From Dialister sp. CAG:486 (GTDB lineage Bacteria > Bacteroidota > Bacteroidia > Bacteroidales > Paludibacteraceae), in assembly GCA_963635385.1 (NCBI GenBank), contig CAVHGD010000009.1, forward strand, positions 1 to 46,241: DNA of 46,241 nt, written 5' to 3'. Shown one piece after another: positions 3,610 to 41,863 of this stretch. Under the pieces are notes generated by a model. It saw only the letters and a list, made by a program, of their open reading frames with translations. It made no database searches and was not told the origin of the DNA. The position numbers were made by a program, and so were the translations under genes. Position 1 is the stretch's first letter; every line of letters starts with the position of its first letter.

Positions 3610-3815
3610 CGGATTTTGGCAACTCGGCAACGAGAAGGCGCAGCGAAAGCAAATAGCAGGGGAACGCTATGGATTGCCTCGCTCGAAACAGGGCATTTGC
3701 AGGGCACTGGAAGCGTTTTGGTTCGGGAGTGGTTCGGGAAAAGAAAAAGTGCAAACGGCACAGAGGGCATTTAGAGGCGTTTTAGGACACGAAGCCCACA
3801 AAAACATATTCCCCT

Positions 3816-25509: not shown

Positions 25510-25541
25510 CTTGCATACGTAGCGAAAAAGTAGTAACTTTG
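25510..25541 (+). promoter_or_regulatory. Candidate promoter for fumarate hydratase (CTTG-N20-TAACTTTG)
   Basis: TAACTTTG at 25534-25541 and CTTG at 25510-13. The site is about 185 nt upstream of the ATG at 25724. Confidence 0.4.
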
Positions 25542-25685
25542 CAGCCGTTCTGTGCAATGTGGCGAACAAGCGATTGAGCAATGGGGGATGTAGAATGGTA
25601 TGCTGTTTGATGTATGAAGGAGAGGAGATAGCAACAGAAAGGCATGGAAATGGGTAATTGTTCATTGGTAATTGCCACAGGACAG

Positions 25686-25718
25686 GCATGTTAATTGTTA
25701 ATTCTTAATTGTTAATTG
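25686..25718 (-). repeat. AATTAACA-word repeat, inverted copy (contains a perfect 18-mer core)
   Basis: GCATGTTAATTGTTAATT at 25686-25703 is the reverse complement of AATTAACAATTAACATGC. It is followed by CTTAATTGTTAATTG. Confidence 0.85.
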
Positions 25719-25723
25719 AAGAT

Positions 25724-27364
25724 ATGGAATTCAAGTATGCGCCGATGTTTCAACTCGGCAAAGACGAGACAGAGTATTACCTGCTGACCAAAGACTTCGT
25801 GTCAGTGGGCGAGTTCGAAGGAAAACCCATCCTGAAAATAGAAAAGGAAGGTCTGACACGCATGGCACAACAAGCCTTCCACGACGTGAGCTTCATGCTG
25901 CGCCGCTCACACAACGAGCAAGTGGCCAAGATACTGCGCGACCCCGAGGCAAGCGCCAACGACAAGTATGTGGCACTCACCTTCTTGCGCAACGCCGAGG
26001 TGGCCTGCAAAGGGCAGTTGCCCCTCTGCCAAGATACCGGTACCGCCATTGTGCATGGCGAGAAAGGGCAGCAAGTATGGACCGGCTACTCGGACGAAGA
26101 GGCGCTGAGCCACGGCGTATACAACACCTACACGCAAGACAACTTGCGCTACTCACAGAACGCGCCGCTCTCGATGTACGAGGAGGTGAACACCAAGTGC
26201 AACCTGCCCGCACAGATAGACATTGAGGCCACCGAAGGCATGGAGTACCGTTTCCTGTGCGTGACCAAAGGCGGCGGCTCTGCCAACAAGACCTATCTCT
26301 ACCAAGAGACCAAGGCCCGCATACAGAACCCCGGCACCCTCATTCCGTTCCTTGTGGAGAAGATGAAGAGCCTCGGTACTGCGGCTTGCCCACCCTACCA
26401 TATCGCCTTTGTGATTGGCGGCACGAGCGCTGAGAAGAACCTGCTCACCGTCAAGTTGGCCTCGACCCACTACTACGACAACCTGCCGACCACGGGCGAC
26501 GAGACCGGGCGTGCCTTCCGCGATATAGAGCTCGAGAAACAGCTGCTGCAAGAGGCCTACAAGATAGGCTTGGGCGCTCAGTTCGGCGGCAAATATATGG
26601 CACACGACGTTCGCGTGGTGCGTCTGCCCCGACACGGCGCAAGCTGCCCCATCGGATTGGGCGTAAGCTGCTCCGCCGACCGTAACATCAAGTGCAAGAT
26701 AAACAAAGACGGTATCTGGATTGAGCGCATGGACAACAACCCGGGCAGTCTGATTCCCGCCGAGCTTCGACAAGCAGGCGAAGGCGATGCCGTGCGCATC
26801 GACCTCAACCAACCCATGCGGGATGTATGCAATATACTGACGCAATACCCGATTGGCACACGCCTCTCGCTGAACGGCACCATCATTGTGGGGCGCGACA
26901 TTGCGCACGCAAAGATTAAGGCCCGCCTCGACGCCGGCGAGCCGATGCCCGAATACCTGAAGAATCACCCTATCTACTATGCAGGCCCCGCCAAGACCCC
27001 TGCCGGCATGGCGTGCGGCTCGATGGGACCGACGACCGCCGGCCGTATGGACCCGTATGTAGATGAGTTCCAAGACCACGGAGGCTCGCTCATCATGCTG
27101 GCAAAGGGCAACCGCTCGATAGACGTGACCAATGCCTGCCAAAAGCACGGCGGATTCTACCTCGGCTCGATTGGCGGTCCTGCGGCCATCTTGGCACAAG
27201 AGAACATCAAGTCGATTGAGTGCGTGGAATACCCCGAGCTCGGCATGGAGGCAATATGGAAAATTGAGGTGGAGAACTTCCCCGCATTCATATTGGTGGA
27301 TGACAAGGGCAACGACTTCTTCAAACAACTGAAGCCTTGCACTGGATGCTCCATACTCAATTAA
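25724..27364 (+). CDS. Class I (Fe-S, FumA/FumB-type) fumarate hydratase
   Basis: The ORF track starts at a TTG at 25709, inside the repeat. I prefer the ATG at 25724 ([14 protein letters not shown]...). Motifs: [36 protein letters not shown], and a C-terminal beta-subunit-like domain. Confidence 0.92.
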
Positions 27365-27391
27365 CAGGTAACAATTAACAATTAACATGCA
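27358..27391 (+). repeat. AATTAACA-word repeat, direct copy (18-mer core at 27373-27390)
   Basis: CAATTAACAGGTAACAATTAACAATTAACATGCA overlaps the fumarase stop codon (27362-27364). Confidence 0.85.
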
Positions 27392-27418
27392 GGGCTGCGC
27401 ATAATTCGAATAGGCAGA

Positions 27419-28276: not shown

Positions 28277-29443
28277 TTGGATACTACACAGAATAAAAAA
28301 CAAATCGCCCTATTAGGCAGCACCGGCAGCATCGGCACACAGACGTTAGATGTGGTGCGCAACCATCCCGATCGATTCGAGGTGTATGCGCTGTCGGCAC
28401 ACCGAAGCATCGACCTGCTGATTCGACAGGCACGCGAGTTCCACCCCGAAGTGGTCTGCATAGCTGACGAGACGCTCTACGAGCCGCTGCGGGATGCATT
28501 GGCCGATATGCCGATCAAAATATGGGCGGGCGCCGATGCCATTGCCGATATGGTAACGATGCCGAGCATTGACGTGGTGGTGGCCGCCATGGTGGGCTAC
28601 GCCGGGTTGCGCCCGACCATTGCCGCCATCCGTGCGGGCAAGACGATTGCACTCGCCAACAAGGAGACGTTGGTGGTGGCAGGCGACCTGATAAGCCGTT
28701 TGGCGCAAGAGCACCATACGCCCATCCTGCCGGTGGATAGCGAACACTCGGCAATATTCCAATCGCTTGCGGGCGAGGGGGACAACGAGATAGAAAAGAT
28801 ACTGCTCACCGCAAGCGGAGGGCCATTCCGCACCTTCTCGCTGGAACAGATGCGTACCGTTACGGCAGAACAGGCGCTGCACCACCCGAACTGGGACATG
28901 GGCGCCAAGATAACCATCGACTCGGCAAGCATGATGAACAAAGGCTTTGAGGTGATTGAAGCCAAGTGGCTGTTCGGGGTGCCCGTGGAGAAGATACAAG
29001 TGCTGGTCCATCCGCAGTCGATTGTCCATTCGGCGGTGCAGTTTGTGGACGGAGCGGTCAAAGCGCAACTCGGCACACCCGATATGCATTTGCCCATTCA
29101 GTATGCCCTATCCTATCCCGAACGCATCAGCAACCCTGCCGACCGACTCGACTTGTTTCGGGCGCACACGCTCACCTTTGAGGAGCCCGACCCCGAACGA
29201 TTCCCCAACCTGCGCCTTGCCTACGAGGCAACGCAACGAGGGGGGAATATGCCGTGCGTGCTGAATGCCGCCAACGAGGTGGTGAATCTCGCTTTCCGAG
29301 AGGGGAAATGCGGGTTCTTGCAGATGTCGGAAGTGATAGCCAAGACCCTGCAGCATGTAGATTTTATCCCTACCCCAACCTACGAGGACTATGTCGAGAC
29401 CGACCAAATAGCTCGAAACATTGCAAAACAATTGGTCTTGTAA
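28277..29443 (+). CDS. dxr: 1-deoxy-D-xylulose 5-phosphate reductoisomerase
   Basis: 388 aa. Motifs: LGSTGSIGTQTLDV, ANKETLV, DSEHSAIFQ, LTASGGPFR, HPNWDMG. There is no ATG before the GSTGSIG motif, so the TTG at 28277 is the likely start. Confidence 0.92.
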   Translation: MDTTQNKKQIALLGSTGSIGTQTLDVVRNHPDRFEVYALSAHRSIDLLIRQAREFHPEVVCIADETLYEPLRDALADMPIKIWAGADAIADMVTMPSIDVVVAAMVGYAGLRPTIAAIRAGKTIALANKETLVVAGDLISRLAQEHHTPILPVDSEHSAIFQSLAGEGDNEIEKILLTASGGPFRTFSLEQMRTVTAEQALHHPNWDMGAKITIDSASMMNKGFEVIEAKWLFGVPVEKIQVLVHPQSIVHSAVQFVDGAVKAQLGTPDMHLPIQYALSYPERISNPADRLDLFRAHTLTFEEPDPERFPNLRLAYEATQRGGNMPCVLNAANEVVNLAFREGKCGFLQMSEVIAKTLQHVDFIPTPTYEDYVETDQIARNIAKQLVL

Positions 29444-29487
29444 GTTAGTCTGTTTGTAAGTTTGTCTGTTTGTAAGTTTGTAAATGG
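29440..29487. repeat. GTTTGTAAGTTTGT word repeat between dxr and rseP
   Basis: GTAAGTTAGTCTGTTTGTAAGTTTGTCTGTTTGTAAGTTTGTAAATGG contains TAAGTTTG (a TAnnTTTG match) at 29457-29464 and 29473-29480. Confidence 0.75.
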
Positions 29488-29576
29488 ATTCGTGGGAGGA
29501 TGGTTACAGGGGGCATTTACAAAGTTAGTTAGATACAAAAGAGATTGATATAATTCTTAATTCATAATTCGCATCC

Positions 29577-31118
29577 ATGCAGTGGATTCAACTCATTTTA
29601 GCGCTTAGTTTCTTAGTTGTTATACACGAACTCGGACACTTCACCTTTGCCCGCATATTCAAAGTGCGGGTCGAGAAATTCTATATGTTCTTCAACCCCC
29701 AAATCTCGCTATTCCGTGCCAAGAAAGTGGATGGCAAGTGGAGGGTGCGGTTCTTTGCCAAGAACATTGAGCCGGCCATTGTGCCGTTGAAGGACGAGAT
29801 TACTCACCAAGACAAATTAGACGAGAAGGGCAATCCCCTATTCCGCCCGATGACGGATGAGGAGCGCAGCGCTCTGCCCGAAGGCGACTGGCGGCGCGAC
29901 CCCGACAACACCGAATGGGGTATCGGTTGGGTGCCGTTCGGCGGCTACTGCTCCATAGCAGGTATGGTGGATGAGACCAAATCGATTACCGACCTGCCGT
30001 CGGAGCCGCAAGCATGGGAGTTCCGCTCGAAGCCCGCTTGGCAACGGCTGCTCATCATCTTGGGCGGTATATTGGTCAATTTCATAGCCGCACTGGTGCT
30101 ATTCTCTATCCTGATTGGGCATTGGGGCACCGATACGCTGCCGCTCCGCAATATCGATTCGGGACTGTACTACTCCGAGATACTGCAACAGGAAGGCTTC
30201 CGCCAACAAGACAAGATACTGAGCATTGACGGACAAGAACCGCAAGAGCTGTCCGACGTGGTGCAATGGCTGATAATAGAGGGCAAACGCAATGTGGTCG
30301 TACTGCGGGGGCAAGATACACTCGGACTGGTGATGTCGAAAGACTTAGGCAAGCGGTACCTCGCCGCACAGAACGAATACGACCGTGAGGAGCGGCAGAA
30401 AGAGCACGCCGACGCCAACTATGTGCGCCGTCCGTTTGTGCTTATCACGGAATACATTCCTTTTGTAATTGACTCGGTAATGCCCGGAAATGCCGCCGCA
30501 CTGGCAGGACTGCAGGCGGGCGACAGCATTGTGGCCGTGGCGGGCGTACCCACTCCGTGCAGCGTGGAGGTGTCCGAAGAACTGCTACACCACCCATGCG
30601 ACAGCGTGACGATAGACTACTACCGCCATGGCGAGGCGCAAGTGGCACACCTGTTCATCGGCGACCAATGCCGCTTGGGCGTGTATCAGAAGTCTAAATA
30701 CGCTTTCTTCCCCATTGAACATACCGACTACTCGTTCTTTGAGGCGATACCCGCAGGCATAAAATACGGCTGGGACATGCTGGCGATGTATGTCAAGCAA
30801 TTCCGGCTGGTATTCACCAAGGAGGGGGCGCAGTCGGTAGGCGGATTCGGCGCTATCGGCAACATGTTCCCCACCTCGTGGAATTGGTACGCGTTCTGGC
30901 ACATGACCGCCTTCTTGAGCCTTATTCTCGCCTTTATGAACTTCCTGCCGATTCCCGCACTCGACGGCGGCTACATCCTGTTCCTGCTTTGGGAAATCAT
31001 TACTCGCCACAAACCGAGCGACAAGTTTCTGGAAGTGGCGAACAACATCGGATTCTGGCTGCTGCTGGCGCTGCTGATTTACGCTAACGGAAACGATATA
31101 TTCAAGGCGTTTTTCTAA
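29577..31118 (+). CDS. rseP: RIP metalloprotease RseP (site-2 protease, M50 family)
   Basis: 513 aa. HELGHF near the N-terminus, internal PDZ-like regions, and MNFLPIPALDGG near the C-terminus. The dxr-rseP synteny is conserved. Confidence 0.9.
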   Translation: MQWIQLILALSFLVVIHELGHFTFARIFKVRVEKFYMFFNPQISLFRAKKVDGKWRVRFFAKNIEPAIVPLKDEITHQDKLDEKGNPLFRPMTDEERSALPEGDWRRDPDNTEWGIGWVPFGGYCSIAGMVDETKSITDLPSEPQAWEFRSKPAWQRLLIILGGILVNFIAALVLFSILIGHWGTDTLPLRNIDSGLYYSEILQQEGFRQQDKILSIDGQEPQELSDVVQWLIIEGKRNVVVLRGQDTLGLVMSKDLGKRYLAAQNEYDREERQKEHADANYVRRPFVLITEYIPFVIDSVMPGNAAALAGLQAGDSIVAVAGVPTPCSVEVSEELLHHPCDSVTIDYYRHGEAQVAHLFIGDQCRLGVYQKSKYAFFPIEHTDYSFFEAIPAGIKYGWDMLAMYVKQFRLVFTKEGAQSVGGFGAIGNMFPTSWNWYAFWHMTAFLSLILAFMNFLPIPALDGGYILFLLWEIITRHKPSDKFLEVANNIGFWLLLALLIYANGNDIFKAFF

Positions 31119-34274: not shown

Positions 34275-35414
34275 ATGCAAACGTTACGAATCCATATACT
34301 CCCCATTCTGCTGCTCGCCGTGCTGCTGACGGCGTGCCGAAAAGAGATAACCTACGATGGCGATGCCTTCGACCCGCTGCTCGTGGTGTCGTCGAATATG
34401 TGCGCCGACAGTGCTCTCTGCTGCTATCTGACCGCCACGACCTCCACGTACGGCGATTTTCCGACGGACAGTCTATACCAGCGCTCGAAAAACTACGTGA
34501 CCGATGCCACGGTGCAGATGCGTATCAACGGCGGGGCTTGGCTGCCGACCATCTACAAAGACAACTGCTACATGGTGGAAGGCGTACAAGCCCAAGCGGG
34601 CGACCGGATAGACCTAAAAGTGGAGAACAGCGGATACGACAAAGCCTCAGCGACCGAACAAGTGCCGGAGAAACTGACTATCACAGCCGTCCATACCGCC
34701 GACCGCTACCCTGTTGCCAACGACAGCGGATGGGTACAGTTCGCTTTAGACATCGCTCCCTACTCGGCAGAAGACAGTGCCTACATCGGGATAAAACTCA
34801 TCGGAGGCAGTTTTATCTGTGTGAAACAGAAAGTACAGCGTGTATCCGAAAGAGTGGATGACGGAGCGGGACACTTCTACTATACAGACCGATACGACAC
34901 CACTGCCGTGCGGGACACCGTAGCGTTGGACTACCTCTACACAAGCGGTGAGCGATGGAATATGTATCTCAACAACCATGCCTTAGGCTCCCCCTACTAT
35001 GGGGTGGACAAAGGAGAATGGATGTATCTATCCACCGCCCATGCACGCGAAGGACTCAGCTTGGACCTGTTTGCGGAACATTGTTGGGATTATGAACAAA
35101 TCGCAGGATTGGATAGCGTAGAGGTACAGAATTTGCAGCTTGAGATACGAACCTTCTCGCTCAACCACATACGCTACCTAACCACCATTGAGCGCAACAA
35201 AGGGAGAAGCGGATATATACGGCTGCCCTCCTTTACCGAATATGACGACCAATATGATGATGAAGAGGAGTTTGACATCATAGAAGAACTACTCGAACTA
35301 TTGGCTGAGCTGAGCATGTTGGGCGGACAAGAAGGCGTCACTATCTACTCGAATGTAGACGGCGCAATCGGCTGCGTGAGAGCCTACACCACGCAAACCG
35401 TAGAGGTGTACTGA
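34275..35414 (+). CDS. Lipoprotein, DUF4249-like partner of the TonB-dependent receptor
   Basis: 379 aa. It has a lipoprotein signal (LLLAVLLTAC). Its position directly after a CarboxypepD_reg-type receptor is the usual DUF4249 context. It has an acidic C-terminal stretch (YDDQYDDEEEFDIIEELLELL). The family call is from context and memory. Confidence 0.5.
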   Translation: MQTLRIHILPILLLAVLLTACRKEITYDGDAFDPLLVVSSNMCADSALCCYLTATTSTYGDFPTDSLYQRSKNYVTDATVQMRINGGAWLPTIYKDNCYMVEGVQAQAGDRIDLKVENSGYDKASATEQVPEKLTITAVHTADRYPVANDSGWVQFALDIAPYSAEDSAYIGIKLIGGSFICVKQKVQRVSERVDDGAGHFYYTDRYDTTAVRDTVALDYLYTSGERWNMYLNNHALGSPYYGVDKGEWMYLSTAHAREGLSLDLFAEHCWDYEQIAGLDSVEVQNLQLEIRTFSLNHIRYLTTIERNKGRSGYIRLPSFTEYDDQYDDEEEFDIIEELLELLAELSMLGGQEGVTIYSNVDGAIGCVRAYTTQTVEVY

Positions 35415-35480
35415 TTAGGAATTAGGAATTAGGAATTAGGAATTGAGGTTAGGAATTGAGGTTAGGAATTGGAAATTAAA
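35415..35480 (+). repeat. TTAGGAATT microsatellite-like array
   Basis: TTAGGAATTAGGAATTAGGAATTAGGAATTGAGGTTAGGAATTGAGGTTAGGAATTGGAAATTAAA starts 1 nt after the stop at 35412-35414. Confidence 0.85.
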
Positions 35481-35690: not shown

Positions 35691-36287
35691 ATGATACAAA
35701 GAATACAAACTCTTTATCTGCTTTTGATTGTGGTACTCGGCATTACTCTATGCTTTGTGCCTGTCGTACAACTGACCACCCCCGAAGAGGCTGCCGAACA
35801 ACGCATGTACGAGATGAAAGCCATCGGATTGCATGAGATTCCAATTAACAATGAACTTGCGTCAATTAACAATGAACAATTAACAATTAACATGCAGAGG
35901 GATAGTGCGGTGCAAACCACCATGGAGAGTATGAAAGCTACAGATAGTGCGGAAACTACTGCTGCGCAGACATCGAAAGGCTTGAACGGGCTGTGGGGAC
36001 TGCTGCTGACAACACTGTGTATTCCCGTGCTGGCGTTGGTGGATATATTCCTCTACAAGAAACGCATCCTGCAAGCACGACTGAATATATTCTTGGCGGT
36101 GCTTTGCATAGGCTACTACGGCATACTGGCCATGTTTATTTGGTTTGCCAAAATGAATCTCGGCACGGAATGGCACCTCTATTTCTGGAGCGGAATCCCC
36201 TTGATATGCCTCGTGCTGACGCTAATGGCAACCCGACGCATTCTGAAAGATGAGGCCCTTGTGCGTGCCGCCGACAGACTGAGATAA
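35691..36287 (+). CDS. DUF4293-like membrane protein with an expanded first loop
   Basis: 198 aa. The MIQRIQTLYLLL start is typical of DUF4293 as I recall it. It has four hydrophobic segments, with about 80 aa between TM1 and TM2 that include repeat-encoded PINNELASINNEQLTINMQ. Confidence 0.65.
   Translation: MIQRIQTLYLLLIVVLGITLCFVPVVQLTTPEEAAEQRMYEMKAIGLHEIPINNELASINNEQLTINMQRDSAVQTTMESMKATDSAETTAAQTSKGLNGLWGLLLTTLCIPVLALVDIFLYKKRILQARLNIFLAVLCIGYYGILAMFIWFAKMNLGTEWHLYFWSGIPLICLVLTLMATRRILKDEALVRAADRLR
35842..35896 (+). repeat. AATTAACA-word repeat embedded in frame in the DUF4293-like CDS (18-mer core at 35878-35895)
   Basis: CAATTAACAATGAACTTGCGTCAATTAACAATGAACAATTAACAATTAACATGCAG. Confidence 0.85.
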
Positions 36288-36322
36288 TTAGGAATTAGGA
36301 ATTAAGAATTAGGAATTAATTC
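36286..36322 (+). repeat. TTAGGAATT array, second copy
   Basis: AATTAGGAATTAGGAATTAAGAATTAGGAATTAATTC overlaps the stop of the DUF4293-like gene. Confidence 0.85.
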
Positions 36323-41733: not shown

Positions 41734-41863
41734 AAGAATTAACAATTAATAATCTATGTGCGTAGAGGGTATTTTCCTTGGTTTTTCCTTGGTTTTACCT
41801 TGTGCTTATGCTGTAGATGCTGAATGCGTAAATTAACAATTAATAATTAACAATTAACATGCA
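41734..41863 (+). repeat. Composite repeat (copy B): AATTAACAATTAATAA - TTTTCCTTGGTTTTTCC...TTACCTTGTG - AATTAACAATTAATAATTAACAATTAACATGCA
   Basis: The 18-mer core lies at 41845-41862, the 17-mer at 41772-41788 and TTACCTTGTG at 41795-41804, all read directly. Confidence 0.85.

What the first reader, a model, noticed from the sequence alone, without database searches (positions are those of the whole stretch)
25686..27391. Perfect 18-mer AATTAACAATTAACATGC present four times, with two inverted copies bracketing the fumarate hydratase gene
Exact copies lie at 27373-27390, 35878-35895 and 41845-41862 on the plus strand and at 25686-25703 as the reverse complement. Four identical 18-mers in 46 kb cannot be chance. 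Each is embedded in longer AATTAACA/AATTAATAA word arrays. The inverted pair lies 21 nt upstream of the fumarase ATG and 9 nt downstream of its stop. A transcript spanning both could form a long-range stem enclosing the whole mRNA, or the pair could be the ends of a MITE-like or cassette-like unit or paired protein-binding sites. The core ends in ATGC(A). I do not recognise this as a described repeat family.
Basis: seen in the sequence. Interest (0 to 1): 0.6.

Follow-up and report, generated by a model that had tools for sequence, protein, structure and literature searches.

The report
Oriented heptamer repeat modules at gene edges
The repeated 18-mer is the capped end of a 7-base tandem-repeat module that sits about 80 times between genes of this uncultured gut Bacteroidales bacterium, always with the same end against a stop or start codon. 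It is a new, AT-rich example of the known but unexplained bacterial heptamer repeats, not a unit built around the fumarase gene.

Summary
The 18-mer lies exactly at the four stated places, where chance predicts none. Its period is 7, not 8. It is the distal part of a roughly 36-nt module: C-AATTAAC-AATTAAN-AATTAAC-AATTAAC-ATGC(AGGG).

The genome holds 39 exact copies and 82 copies with at most 1 mismatch, within at least 202 AATTANN heptad arrays (mode 4 units), of which 194 are intergenic.

The heptad "head" abuts a stop codon (sense strand, often supplying the stop) or a start codon (antisense strand, typically 6-7 nt away). The ATGC "tail" faces the spacer interior. For this module the count is 35:0 here and 32:0 in loci from a couple of dozen other MAGs that share the exact 32-mer.

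The inverted pair around the fumarase gene follows from this rule. Genes with arrays at both ends are no commoner than chance (about 2 seen, 1.6 expected).

I found no RAYT gene, no IVS-protein gene, no target duplication and no excess of inverted partners. RNA folding shows no pairing of solo arrays.

Unit numbers differ between close species. The module is kept at orthologous sites at about 95% identity while the surrounding spacer is unalignable.

This matches the heptameric intergenic repeats of Xanthomonas/Nostoc (Rehm 2015) and the TAACTGA repeats (MacGregor 2015). This scan has already reported the class in at least 72 other genomes. Function remains unknown.

The parts
25686..25717 (-). 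Capped heptamer module (A family) upstream of the fumarase gene. On the minus strand it reads AATTAAC-AATTAAG-AATTAAC-AATTAAC-ATGC. Its head is 6 nt (GAAGAT) from the ATG at 25724. It contains the 18-mer at 25686-25703.
   Evidence: The same module sits at the same distance from the ATG in G312 (2 differences in 41 nt) and in G230.
25653..25673 (-). Degenerate second module (AATTACC-AATGAAC-AATTACC). The close relative G230 has a canonical A module at the orthologous place.
25534..25541 (+). Bacteroidota-type -7 promoter motif TAACTTTG of the fumarase gene. It places both upstream modules in a 5' UTR of about 175 nt.
   Evidence: The motif and its context are conserved in relatives. Promoter function is inferred from the known TAnnTTTG consensus.
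25724..27364 (+). Class I fumarate hydratase gene (546 aa). It is an ordinary housekeeping gene that happens to have arrays at both ends.
   Evidence: Pfam Fumerase and Fumerase_C.
27359..27390 (+). Capped heptamer array after the fumarase gene: AATTAAC-AGGTAAC-AATTAAC-AATTAAC-ATGC. The first heptad supplies the Asn codon and the TAA stop. It contains the 18-mer at 27373-27390.
   Evidence: G230 has one unit fewer. G312 has AAGTAAC units. G006 has AATTAAG units at the same place.
27387..27405 (+). Cap-loop-cap ATGC-AGGGCTGC-GCAT followed by a single CATAATT unit. This may be the remnant of an inverted partner arm.
   Evidence: Read from the sequence. This is an inference.
29549..29569 (-). Three-unit array of another AATTANN family (AATTATG-AATTAAG-AATTATA), with its head 7 nt from the ATG at 29577.
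   Evidence: G230 has about 7 units at this place.
35420..35440 (+). AATTAGG x3 array, with its head 5 nt after the stop codon at 35414.
35843..35895 (+). Two A-type modules lying in frame inside the DUF4293-like ORF (35691-36287). They are part of an insertion of roughly 33-48 codons that orthologues lack. AATGAAC variants keep the frame open.
36286..36320 (+). Five-unit AATTAGG/AATTAAG array that overlaps the TAA stop of the gene at 35691-36287.
41737..41750 (+). Decayed A module, with its head 14 nt from the start (41722) of a minus-strand gene. G230 has the canonical capped module here.
41776..41802 (+). B module: CCTTGGTTTTT 11-mers with phased T tracts. It is often joined to the tail of A modules.
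   Evidence: 32 copies in the genome.
41831..41862 (+). Interior capped A module (AATTAAC-AATTAAT-AATTAAC-AATTAAC-ATGC) holding the 18-mer at 41845-41862. It lies in a 251-nt spacer that is only 22 nt long in G312.

Best explanation
The 18-mer is the tail of a capped heptanucleotide repeat module, C-(AATTAAC)-(AATTAAN)-(AATTAAC)-(AATTAAC)-ATGC(AGGG). The module is one sequence family within a genome-wide population of AATTANN seven-base tandem arrays. These arrays belong to the known class of bacterial heptameric intergenic simple-sequence repeats (LSSR/STRR type).

Shown:
- The arrays sit almost only between genes, mostly at co-directional junctions that lack a promoter motif, and these junctions are inflated (median 193 nt against 66 nt).
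- The arrays are strictly oriented. The heptad head lies against the stop codon (sense strand, often providing the stop) or against the start codon (antisense strand, 6-7 nt away). The cap points into the spacer.
- Unit number changes in steps of 7 nt between close species.
- Genome-specific unit variants appear at orthologous arrays.
- The exact 32-mer persists in many species.

Inferred:
- Arrays change length by slipped-strand mispairing.
- Copies are kept alike by recombination between copies, by selection, or by both.
- The module behaves as the terminal piece of mosaic non-coding inserts that land in the few tolerated bases between a stop and the next start. Such an insert, in either orientation, would give equal numbers at stops and starts and an absolute head-to-gene polarity.
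- In mRNA the arrays are unstructured, AU-rich and hold stop codons in every frame, so they are tolerated at cistron edges and may buffer them.

The inverted pair around the fumarase gene is a by-product of the polarity rule and not a unit.
For: **Period and abundance.** TRF shows excesses at periods 7 and 11. There are 202 AATTANN arrays with a mode of 4 units.

**Placement.** 194 of 202 arrays are intergenic.

**Polarity.** 86 head-near against 10 tail-near arrays overall (p = 3e-16), and 35:0 for the A module. The G312 sample gives 18:3. Loci of other species that carry the exact 32-mer give 32:0, split 16 at starts and 16 at stops.

**Distances.** Head to ATG peaks at 6-7 nt. Head to stop is -6 (16 arrays), -2 (15 arrays) or +2 to +6.

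**Bracketing.** Genes with arrays at both ends are not enriched.

**Unit-number change.** G000 against G230: 4 against 3 units, and 3 against about 7 units.

**Concerted change.** G312 has AAGTAAC units at the orthologous fumarase array, and this variant occurs at many other G312 loci.

**Module conservation.** About 95% identity at orthologous sites while the rest of the spacer is unalignable.

**Spacer gain or loss.** 22 nt against 251 nt at one junction.

**Module edges.** The module has sharp edges with no conserved flanks.

**Junction type.** Array-bearing co-directional spacers have a median of 193 nt against 66 nt. Only 7.5% of start-adjacent arrays have a promoter motif upstream in the same spacer.

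**Published class.** The same polarity, the same mode of 4 units and the same placement mostly between co-oriented genes are reported for GGGAATC and GGGGAYT repeats (PMC4692102). Heptamers a few nt upstream of start codons are reported in PMC4679880.
Against: - A slippage-driven microsatellite would not by itself keep an exact 32-mer across a couple of dozen MAGs or hold a tight 3-5 unit size. This points to selection or to an active copying process that I did not identify.
- The 'terminal piece of an insert' idea lacks a defined other end, a target duplication or a mobilising enzyme. Some spacers consist of the module alone (C61, 43 nt).
- Two strains at 99.5% identity show no length change at 2.5 arrays, so slippage is not fast.
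- My gene calls come from a home-made hexamer model, so individual start codons may be wrong.
Confidence: 0.6

Rival explanations
1. The module is a functional cis-signal at cistron edges. As DNA, or as nascent RNA, it is read by a dedicated or general factor, for example ribosomal protein S1, a cold-shock-type OB-fold protein taking about 7 nt per domain, or a DNA-binding protein. On this reading it tunes translation initiation, re-initiation or termination in Bacteroidales, which lack Shine-Dalgarno sequences.
For: - The exact 32-mer is shared by a couple of dozen MAGs.
- The module is more conserved than the flanking spacer, and even than coding DNA, at orthologous sites.
- The distance to the ATG is a tight 6-7 nt and the size is a tight 4 units.
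- Arrays lie mostly in promoter-less junctions that must be co-transcribed.
- The arrays are unstructured (-1.9 to -3.3 kcal/mol).
- MacGregor proposed S1, Csp or Csr binding for TAACTGA repeats (PMC4679880).
Against: - Opposite strands are presented at stops and at starts, so one RNA-sequence reader cannot serve both.
- Close relatives lack the module at the same genes and use ordinary A-rich leaders. About half of the orthologous sites in G312 lack it.
- The neighbouring genes include ordinary housekeeping genes (fumarase, dxr); gene classes were not tallied.
- No factor was identified and no expression data were available.
Confidence: 0.2
2. The modules are the arms (terminal inverted repeats) of a hairpin-type mobile element or cassette. 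This would be like MITEs, REP/REPIN elements, or the heptamer-armed cassettes related to 23S rRNA intervening sequences. Solo modules would be decayed halves.
For: - In other species the same module often occurs as tail-to-tail inverted pairs with loops of 15-45 nt.
- G000 has 13 tail-in pairs closer than 300 nt.
- The fumarase downstream spacer reads cap-loop-cap with a one-unit remnant arm.
- Whole spacer segments are gained or lost between species.
- One module lies inside a CDS loop.
- Earlier scan notes describe heptamer-armed cassettes elsewhere.
Against: - No Y1 (RAYT) transposase and no PF05635 gene were found. The single PF13366 gene has no arms.
- No target duplication and no conserved element body were seen.
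- Inverted partners (13/73) are no commoner than direct ones (20/73), and about 60% of arrays have no partner.
- Solo arrays are not paired in predicted RNA folds.
- There are no matches in 2.9 million viral contigs.
- No movement is seen between strains at 99.5% identity.
Confidence: 0.15
3. The inverted pair is specific to the fumarase gene. Its 5' UTR and 3' UTR arrays pair in the mRNA and enclose the whole message, for stability or RNase III processing.
For: The two arrays can form a duplex of about 28 bp at -29.6 kcal/mol, against -10 +/- 2.8 for shuffles. Both arrays are retained in G230 and G312.
Against: - Genes flanked at both ends are at chance level.
- Arrays at the two ends of a gene are usually of different families.
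- Most close relatives have the downstream array but no upstream one.
- The 1.65-kb loop would be translated, and translation would unwind the stem.
Confidence: 0.03

Closest known systems
G-rich heptameric intergenic repeats of Xanthomonas (GGGAATC) and Nostoc PCC 7120 (GGGGAYT), Rehm et al. 2015, PMC4692102
   Same: The unit is 7 nt with a clear preference for about four units. About 90% or more are intergenic, mostly between co-oriented genes, and both strands are used equally. The polarity is identical: on the non-coding strand within 0-50 bp upstream of an ORF, and on the coding strand just after or overlapping the stop. Sites are kept between related species while length and sequence vary. 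No function is known.
   Different: Here the units are AT-rich (AATTANN) and cannot form G-quadruplexes. The four-unit preference and the polarity therefore cannot be explained by G4 formation. This family also has a fixed ATGC cap and a module-level consensus shared across many species. Convergent spacers are depleted here, whereas divergent spacers are depleted there.
TAACTGA direct repeats of marine Beggiatoaceae, some cyanobacteria and five Bacteroidetes (MacGregor 2015, PMC4679880)
   Same: These are intergenic heptamers, 2-6 copies per set, lying within a few nt upstream of start codons. They sometimes overlap the upstream gene's stop codon and have stops in all three frames. The coding-strand reading upstream of starts here (TAATTGT) resembles TAACTGA at 5 of 7 positions.
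   Different: The unit is different. TAACTGA sets are overwhelmingly in one orientation, toward a start codon. Here half of the modules sit at stops on the other strand, and there is no association with an alternative RNA polymerase subunit.
STRR (short tandemly repeated repetitive sequences) of heterocystous cyanobacteria, and heptanucleotide long simple-sequence repeats (Mrazek et al. 2007, as summarised in PMC4679880 and PMC4692102)
   Same: Tandem heptanucleotides are dispersed at many intergenic loci, with lineage-specific units. Polymerase slippage is the suggested source.
   Different: The phylum and units are different. The capped, size-restricted module with cross-species identity is more element-like than a plain microsatellite.
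REP/BIME mosaic elements with RAYT transposases
   Same: Both are short (about 35 nt) dispersed extragenic units, combined with other short modules into mosaic spacers, transcribed within operons and present in hundreds of copies.
   Different: The module is not a palindrome (self-fold -1.9 to -3.3 kcal/mol). No RAYT gene is present. The module has internal 7-nt periodicity. REPs avoid divergent spacers and favour 3' ends.

Membership tests
Heptameric intergenic simple-sequence repeats (LSSR/STRR class) | Tandem units of 7 nt at many dispersed loci | tested here: met
   TRF shows a period-7 excess (266 arrays). 202 AATTANN arrays have 3 or more units.
Heptameric intergenic simple-sequence repeats (LSSR/STRR class) | Strong bias to non-coding DNA | tested here: met
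   194 of 202 arrays are intergenic in a genome that is 85% coding.
Heptameric intergenic simple-sequence repeats (LSSR/STRR class) | Close to ORFs with fixed polarity: non-coding strand upstream, coding strand downstream or overlapping the stop (Rehm 2015) | tested here: met
   86:10 overall, 35:0 for the A module, and 32:0 in other species' loci.
Heptameric intergenic simple-sequence repeats (LSSR/STRR class) | Sites kept between relatives while unit number and sequence vary | tested here: met
   Fumarase, 29.5-kb and other junctions compared between G000, G230 and G312.
G-quadruplex-forming heptamer repeats (Rehm subfamily) | Four G-tracts able to form a G4 | tested here: not met
   The units are AATTAAC, AATTAGG and AATTAAG, which have no G-tracts.
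TAACTGA repeats (MacGregor 2015) | Unit TAACTGA, forward orientation toward a start codon | tested here: not met
   The unit differs. Half of the modules are at stops on the other strand.
REP/REPIN with RAYT | Palindromic unit and a Y1 (RAYT) transposase gene in the genome | tested here: not met
   The module folds at only -1.9 to -3.3 kcal/mol. PF01797 was not found in a genome that is 95% complete.
MITE | Terminal inverted repeats, target-site duplication and a defined element body | tested here: not met
   No conservation beyond the roughly 36-nt module and no duplication. Inverted partners are found for 13 of 73 arrays and direct partners for 20 of 73.
Heptamer-armed PF05635 (23S rRNA IVS-protein) cassette | A PF05635 gene between inverted heptamer arms | tested here: not met
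   No PF05635 match in G000. The control genome (B. thetaiotaomicron) was detected.
PF13366 (GxxExxY) / Ssn-type nuclease framed by repeats | Nuclease gene between inverted repeat arms | tested here: not met
   There is one PF13366 gene at C50:12512-12925, and its flanks hold no heptad arrays.
Phase-variable contingency-locus SSR | Unit number hypervariable between strains, linked to surface or virulence genes | tested here: inconclusive
   The 2.5 arrays that could be compared are identical between strains at 99.5% identity. The neighbours include housekeeping genes. No read-level data were available.

The most novel reading that the evidence does not exclude
The capped heptamer module may be a conserved, orientation-specific punctuation signal. 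A dedicated heptad-reading factor would recognise it and mark the outer edges of cistrons in operons of Bacteroidales, which lack Shine-Dalgarno sequences. This AT-rich family reproduces the four-unit preference and the ORF-facing polarity that were attributed to G-quadruplexes in Xanthomonas and Nostoc. The same composition-independent machinery or process, rather than G4 formation, could therefore underlie bacterial heptamer repeats in general.
Probability: 0.12. Interest if true: 0.75.

Novelty: new member of a known kind. Interest (0 to 1): 0.3.

Why it matters
Heptamer repeats are the commonest long simple-sequence repeats in bacteria, and nobody knows why they exist or why they face genes in a fixed way. 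This family gives three things:
- An AT-rich counter-example. The 'four units' and 'polarity' features are not products of G-quadruplex formation.
- An unusually clean polarity: 67:0 over this genome and a couple of dozen other MAGs.
- A sequence-defined, capped module that is conserved across species. It could be tested directly in reporter constructs in a laboratory Bacteroides strain.

On the practical side, these arrays break short-read assemblies (contigs end in them), inflate operon spacers about three-fold, can supply stop codons, and can enter coding loops. Gene callers and comparative pipelines for gut Bacteroidales should take them into account.

Tried and rejected
- **Rfam.** A search of the whole window at gathering thresholds gave no match.
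- **Exact-protein look-ups.** Two of three look-ups meant to find more same-species contigs found nothing. One gave strain L081.
- **RAYT and cassette enzymes.** PF01797 and PF05635 are absent. PF13366 is present once, without arms.
- **Gene-bracketing pairs.** They occur at chance level.
- **Head-in pairs.** They enclose ordinary genes of various sizes, not a recurrent small cassette gene.
- **Palindromic tail-to-tail junctions (…ATGCAT…).** None are present in this genome. This weakens an end-extension-and-annealing origin that I considered.
- **Inverted-partner search and RNA folding of single-array spacers.** Neither showed enrichment.
- **'Safety net of stop codons' as the general explanation.** Rejected, because convergent spacers (two stops) are depleted of arrays (3 of about 190) and the homologous G-rich repeats of other phyla contain no stops.
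- **Random truncation of ORF 3' ends by arrays.** Rejected, because head-to-stop offsets are -6 or -2 and almost never -13 or -20.
- **Phage carriage.** The module was not found in viral contigs.
- **Reversed-genome control for AATTA arrays.** It proved invalid, because AATTAAC read backwards is a cyclic permutation of itself.
Full report
**1. Observation**

The 18-mer AATTAACAATTAACATGC occurs exactly at 25686-25703 (-), 27373-27390 (+), 35878-35895 (+) and 41845-41862 (+). A 2-mismatch copy lies at 35843-35860. None of 100 dinucleotide-preserving shuffles produced a match.

Each 18-mer is the last two heptads plus an ATGC cap of a four-heptad module. An information profile over 81 genomic copies gives the consensus C-AATTAAC-AATTAAa-AATTAAC-AATTAAC-ATGCAGGG. 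Nothing is conserved on either side of it.

**2. Organism and abundance**

The window is contig C9 of a 2.25-Mb assembly of 140 contigs, 51% G+C and 95% complete. Fumarase relatives identify it as an uncultured gut or rumen Bacteroidales, usually labelled Paludibacteraceae in GenBank.

The genome has 39 exact copies of the 18-mer and 82 copies with at most 1 mismatch. TRF shows excesses of tandem repeats at periods 7 and 11.

A direct scan finds 202 arrays of three or more AATTANN units. The unit counts are AATTAAC 187, AATTAGG 171, AATTAAG 110, then AATTAAT, AATTATG and AATTAAA. Array sizes are sharply limited: 92 have four units, 58 have three and 44 have five.

Frequent-k-mer assembly shows further short modules:
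- CCTTGGTTTTT 11-mers (B module).
- GGTTCGGGAGT 11-mers.
- TCCCCTCCTTTGGAGGGG hairpins.
- A structured element of about 90 nt.

**3. Placement**

I called genes with a hexamer model trained on long ORFs. It gave 1641 genes covering 85% of the genome.

- 194 of 202 arrays are intergenic.
- Most lie between co-directional genes.
- Convergent spacers hold 3 arrays against about 17 expected by spacer count.
- Divergent spacers hold about the expected number.

The main result is a polarity. I call the heptad end the head and the ATGC end the tail.

| Measure | Value |
|---|---|
| Median head distance to a CDS boundary | 8-9 nt |
| Median tail distance to a CDS boundary | 129 nt |
| Head near only vs tail near only, all arrays | 86 vs 10 (p = 3e-16) |
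| Same, A module only | 35 vs 0 |

After stop codons the coding strand reads AATTANN. In 31 of 57 cases the first heptad contains the stop codon (offsets -6 or -2). Offsets of -13 or -20, which random truncation of ORFs would produce, are almost absent.

Before start codons the coding strand reads GCAT(GTTAATT)4. The head lies mostly 6-7 nt from the ATG, in 24 of 48 cases.

All eight arrays in the window obey the rule. This includes both fumarase arrays.
- The upstream module ends 6 nt before the ATG.
- The downstream array supplies the last codon and the TAA stop.

**4. The 'bracketing' is a by-product**

48 genes have a head-in array at the start and 56 have one at the stop. Only one gene has both, or two if fumarase is counted (its second unit, AGGTAAC, escaped my detector). 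Independence predicts 1.6.

The two fumarase arrays could form a duplex of about 28 bp at -29.6 kcal/mol. Shuffles give -10 +/- 2.8. The bracketing is therefore not a recurrent design.

In 58 single-array co-directional spacers, 42% of array bases are paired in the minimum-energy fold, against 44% when the rest of the spacer is shuffled.

Partner arrays in the same spacer are inverted in 13 of 73 cases and direct in 20 of 73 cases. Most arrays have no partner.

**5. Context**

Array-bearing co-directional spacers have a median length of 193 nt, against 66 nt for the others. Only 19% contain a Bacteroidota -7 promoter motif (TAnnTTTG). Only 7.5% of start-adjacent arrays have such a motif upstream in the same spacer.

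Most arrays are therefore extra DNA inside junctions that are probably co-transcribed. This step is inferred.

The fumarase upstream module is an exception. It lies in a 5' UTR, about 145 nt downstream of a conserved TAACTTTG promoter motif.

**6. Evolution**

*Same species.* A second strain (L081, 99.5% identical) has identical arrays at 27373 and 29549. Its contig breaks inside the upstream array.

*G230, 94-98% identical.*
- The fumarase downstream array has three units instead of four.
- The array before the gene at 29577 has about seven units instead of three.
- The fumarase 5' UTR has three tandem canonical modules, where G000 has one plus a decayed one.

*G312, 81-84% identical.*
- The upstream module is kept at the same 6-nt distance from the ATG, with 2 differences in 41 nt, while the rest of the UTR is unalignable.
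- The downstream array is kept but is built of AAGTAAC units. This variant is common elsewhere in G312 and rare in G000, so the change is concerted.

*Other congeners.* They have no upstream module. At the fumarase stop they carry short arrays of their own units (AATTAAG, AATTGAG, AATTACG and others).

*Orthologous spacers.* Of ten array-bearing spacers compared between G000 and G312, about half keep the module. The others are replaced wholesale. One junction is 22 nt in G312 and 251 nt in G000.

*Inside a gene.* One module pair lies in frame inside a loop of a DUF4293-like protein. It is part of an insertion of 33-48 codons that is absent from 36 congeners.

**7. Distribution**

- The 18-mer (at most 1 mismatch) is abundant in a subgroup of the genus: G230 94, G312 72, G300 67, G215 32 and G298 29. 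It is at 0-1 copies in 24 other species.
- Four-unit AATTANN arrays occur in 74 of 151 genomes of the family, very unevenly.
- The exact 32-mer (one free position) was found in at least 111 stretches from a couple of dozen MAGs from horse, ruminant, chicken and human guts.
- In those loci the polarity is again absolute: 32 head-near, 0 tail-near, 16 at starts and 16 at stops.
- In several of those species the module often forms tail-to-tail inverted pairs with loops of 15-45 nt.
- No match was found in 2.9 million viral contigs.

**8. Mobile-element tests**

- No Y1 (RAYT) transposase was found.
- No PF05635 IVS-protein gene was found.
- One PF13366 gene is present, with no heptad arms.
- No target duplication and no conserved body were seen.

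**9. Comparison with the literature**

Rehm et al. 2015 (PMC4692102) describe GGGAATC and GGGGAYT heptamers of Xanthomonas and Nostoc. These show:
- A preference for four units.
- About 90% intergenic location.
- Placement mostly between co-oriented genes.
- Equal use of both strands.
- The same polarity as here: non-coding strand within 0-50 bp upstream of an ORF, and coding strand just after or overlapping the stop.
- Retention of sites between related species with length variation.
- No identified function.

The authors linked the four-unit preference to G-quadruplex formation.

MacGregor 2015 (PMC4679880) describes TAACTGA heptamers a few nt upstream of start codons in Beggiatoaceae, cyanobacteria and a few Bacteroidetes, including Paludibacter.

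The present family fits this class. Because it is AT-rich, it shows that the four-unit preference and the polarity do not depend on G4 potential.

This scan has already reported oriented heptamer arrays in at least 72 other, mostly Bacteroidales, genomes. It has also reported heptamer-armed cassettes in other genomes. I tested the cassette leads here and they do not apply to this genome.

**10. Mechanism**

*Shown:*
- Class membership.
- The polarity.
- Unit-number change in 7-nt steps.
- Concerted unit variants.
- Conservation of the module above that of the surrounding spacer.
- Absence of known mobilising genes.

*Inferred, and the most likely reading (about 0.6):* these are slippage-prone repeat modules kept alike by exchange between copies, by selection, or by both. 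They act as the terminal piece of mosaic non-coding inserts in the few tolerated bases of operon junctions. This alone would give the 1:1 ratio of stops to starts, the mirrored strands and the absolute polarity. The arrays are tolerated because they are unstructured, AU-rich and full of stop codons.

One constraint may add to the polarity at start codons. In the orientation that is never seen, the AUG in the cap would lie downstream of all the array's stop codons and just before the real start. In the observed orientation, a ribosome starting at the cap AUG stops after six codons within the array. This is read from the sequence and is untested.

*Unexplained:* what keeps an exact 32-mer across species and limits arrays to 3-5 units. 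A functional reader (about 0.2) or a hairpin-type mobile element (about 0.15) remains possible.

**11. Verdict**

The fumarase-centred interpretation is not supported. The feature is a new AT-rich member of a known, unexplained repeat class. Interest is modest because the class is in print and this scan has met it repeatedly. The clean polarity and the counter-example to the G4 explanation are the useful additions.

Noticed in passing
window 41776-41802 (32 copies in the genome): The B module consists of CCTTGGTTTTT 11-mers with T tracts phased at about one helical turn. It is usually joined to the tail of A modules (…ATGCAGGGTGG-TTTTCCTTGG…). The phasing suggests intrinsically bent DNA. Its function is unknown.
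   Followed up: partly
window 3720-3739; 134 matches genome-wide: A second abundant period-11 family (GGTTCGGGAGT tandem units) is the most frequent non-heptamer repeat of the genome.
   Followed up: no
G000 contigs C39, C85, C100, C121 and others (19 copies; none in the window): A structured repeat of about 90 nt (…GGCGGCTCTTGCGAGCCGTTCGGGCGGGATACTATCCCGCGCTAAGAAACCGCTA…) has two perfect hairpins and often follows an A module. It may be a small RNA or a MITE body. Rfam was not run on it.
   Followed up: no
window 29438-29490: A 16-nt tandem repeat (TTGTAAGTTTGTCTGT) follows the dxr stop codon. The close relative G230 has one unit fewer.
   Followed up: partly
window 35838-35981 within the ORF at 35691-36287: The DUF4293-like membrane protein carries an in-frame insertion of 33-48 codons in its first loop, which includes two heptamer modules. 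36 congeners lack it.
   Followed up: partly
window about 30061 onward, against L081: The same-species strain L081 aligns at 99.5% without gaps up to window position 30061. The last 300 nt or so of the locus do not align, inside the gene at 29577-31118. This could be a recombination tract or an assembly chimera.
   Followed up: no
G000 contig C37 (11 copies): A repeat (CACCCCACTGCGCAAGCTTGTGGGGACCCCGCAGAGAG) clusters on one contig and could be a CRISPR array.
   Followed up: no
loci L161, L184, L215 (= G312) and L173, L182, L196: Several GenBank bins that carry this Bacteroidales repeat are labelled Azospirillum sp. CAG:239, Firmicutes bacterium CAG:95, uncultured Clostridium or Bacteroides uniformis. 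These organism labels are unreliable.
   Followed up: no
G300 contig C92, positions 37-410: Five exact copies of the 18-mer are spaced exactly 89 nt apart. In that species the A module is part of a higher-order 89-nt tandem repeat.
   Followed up: no
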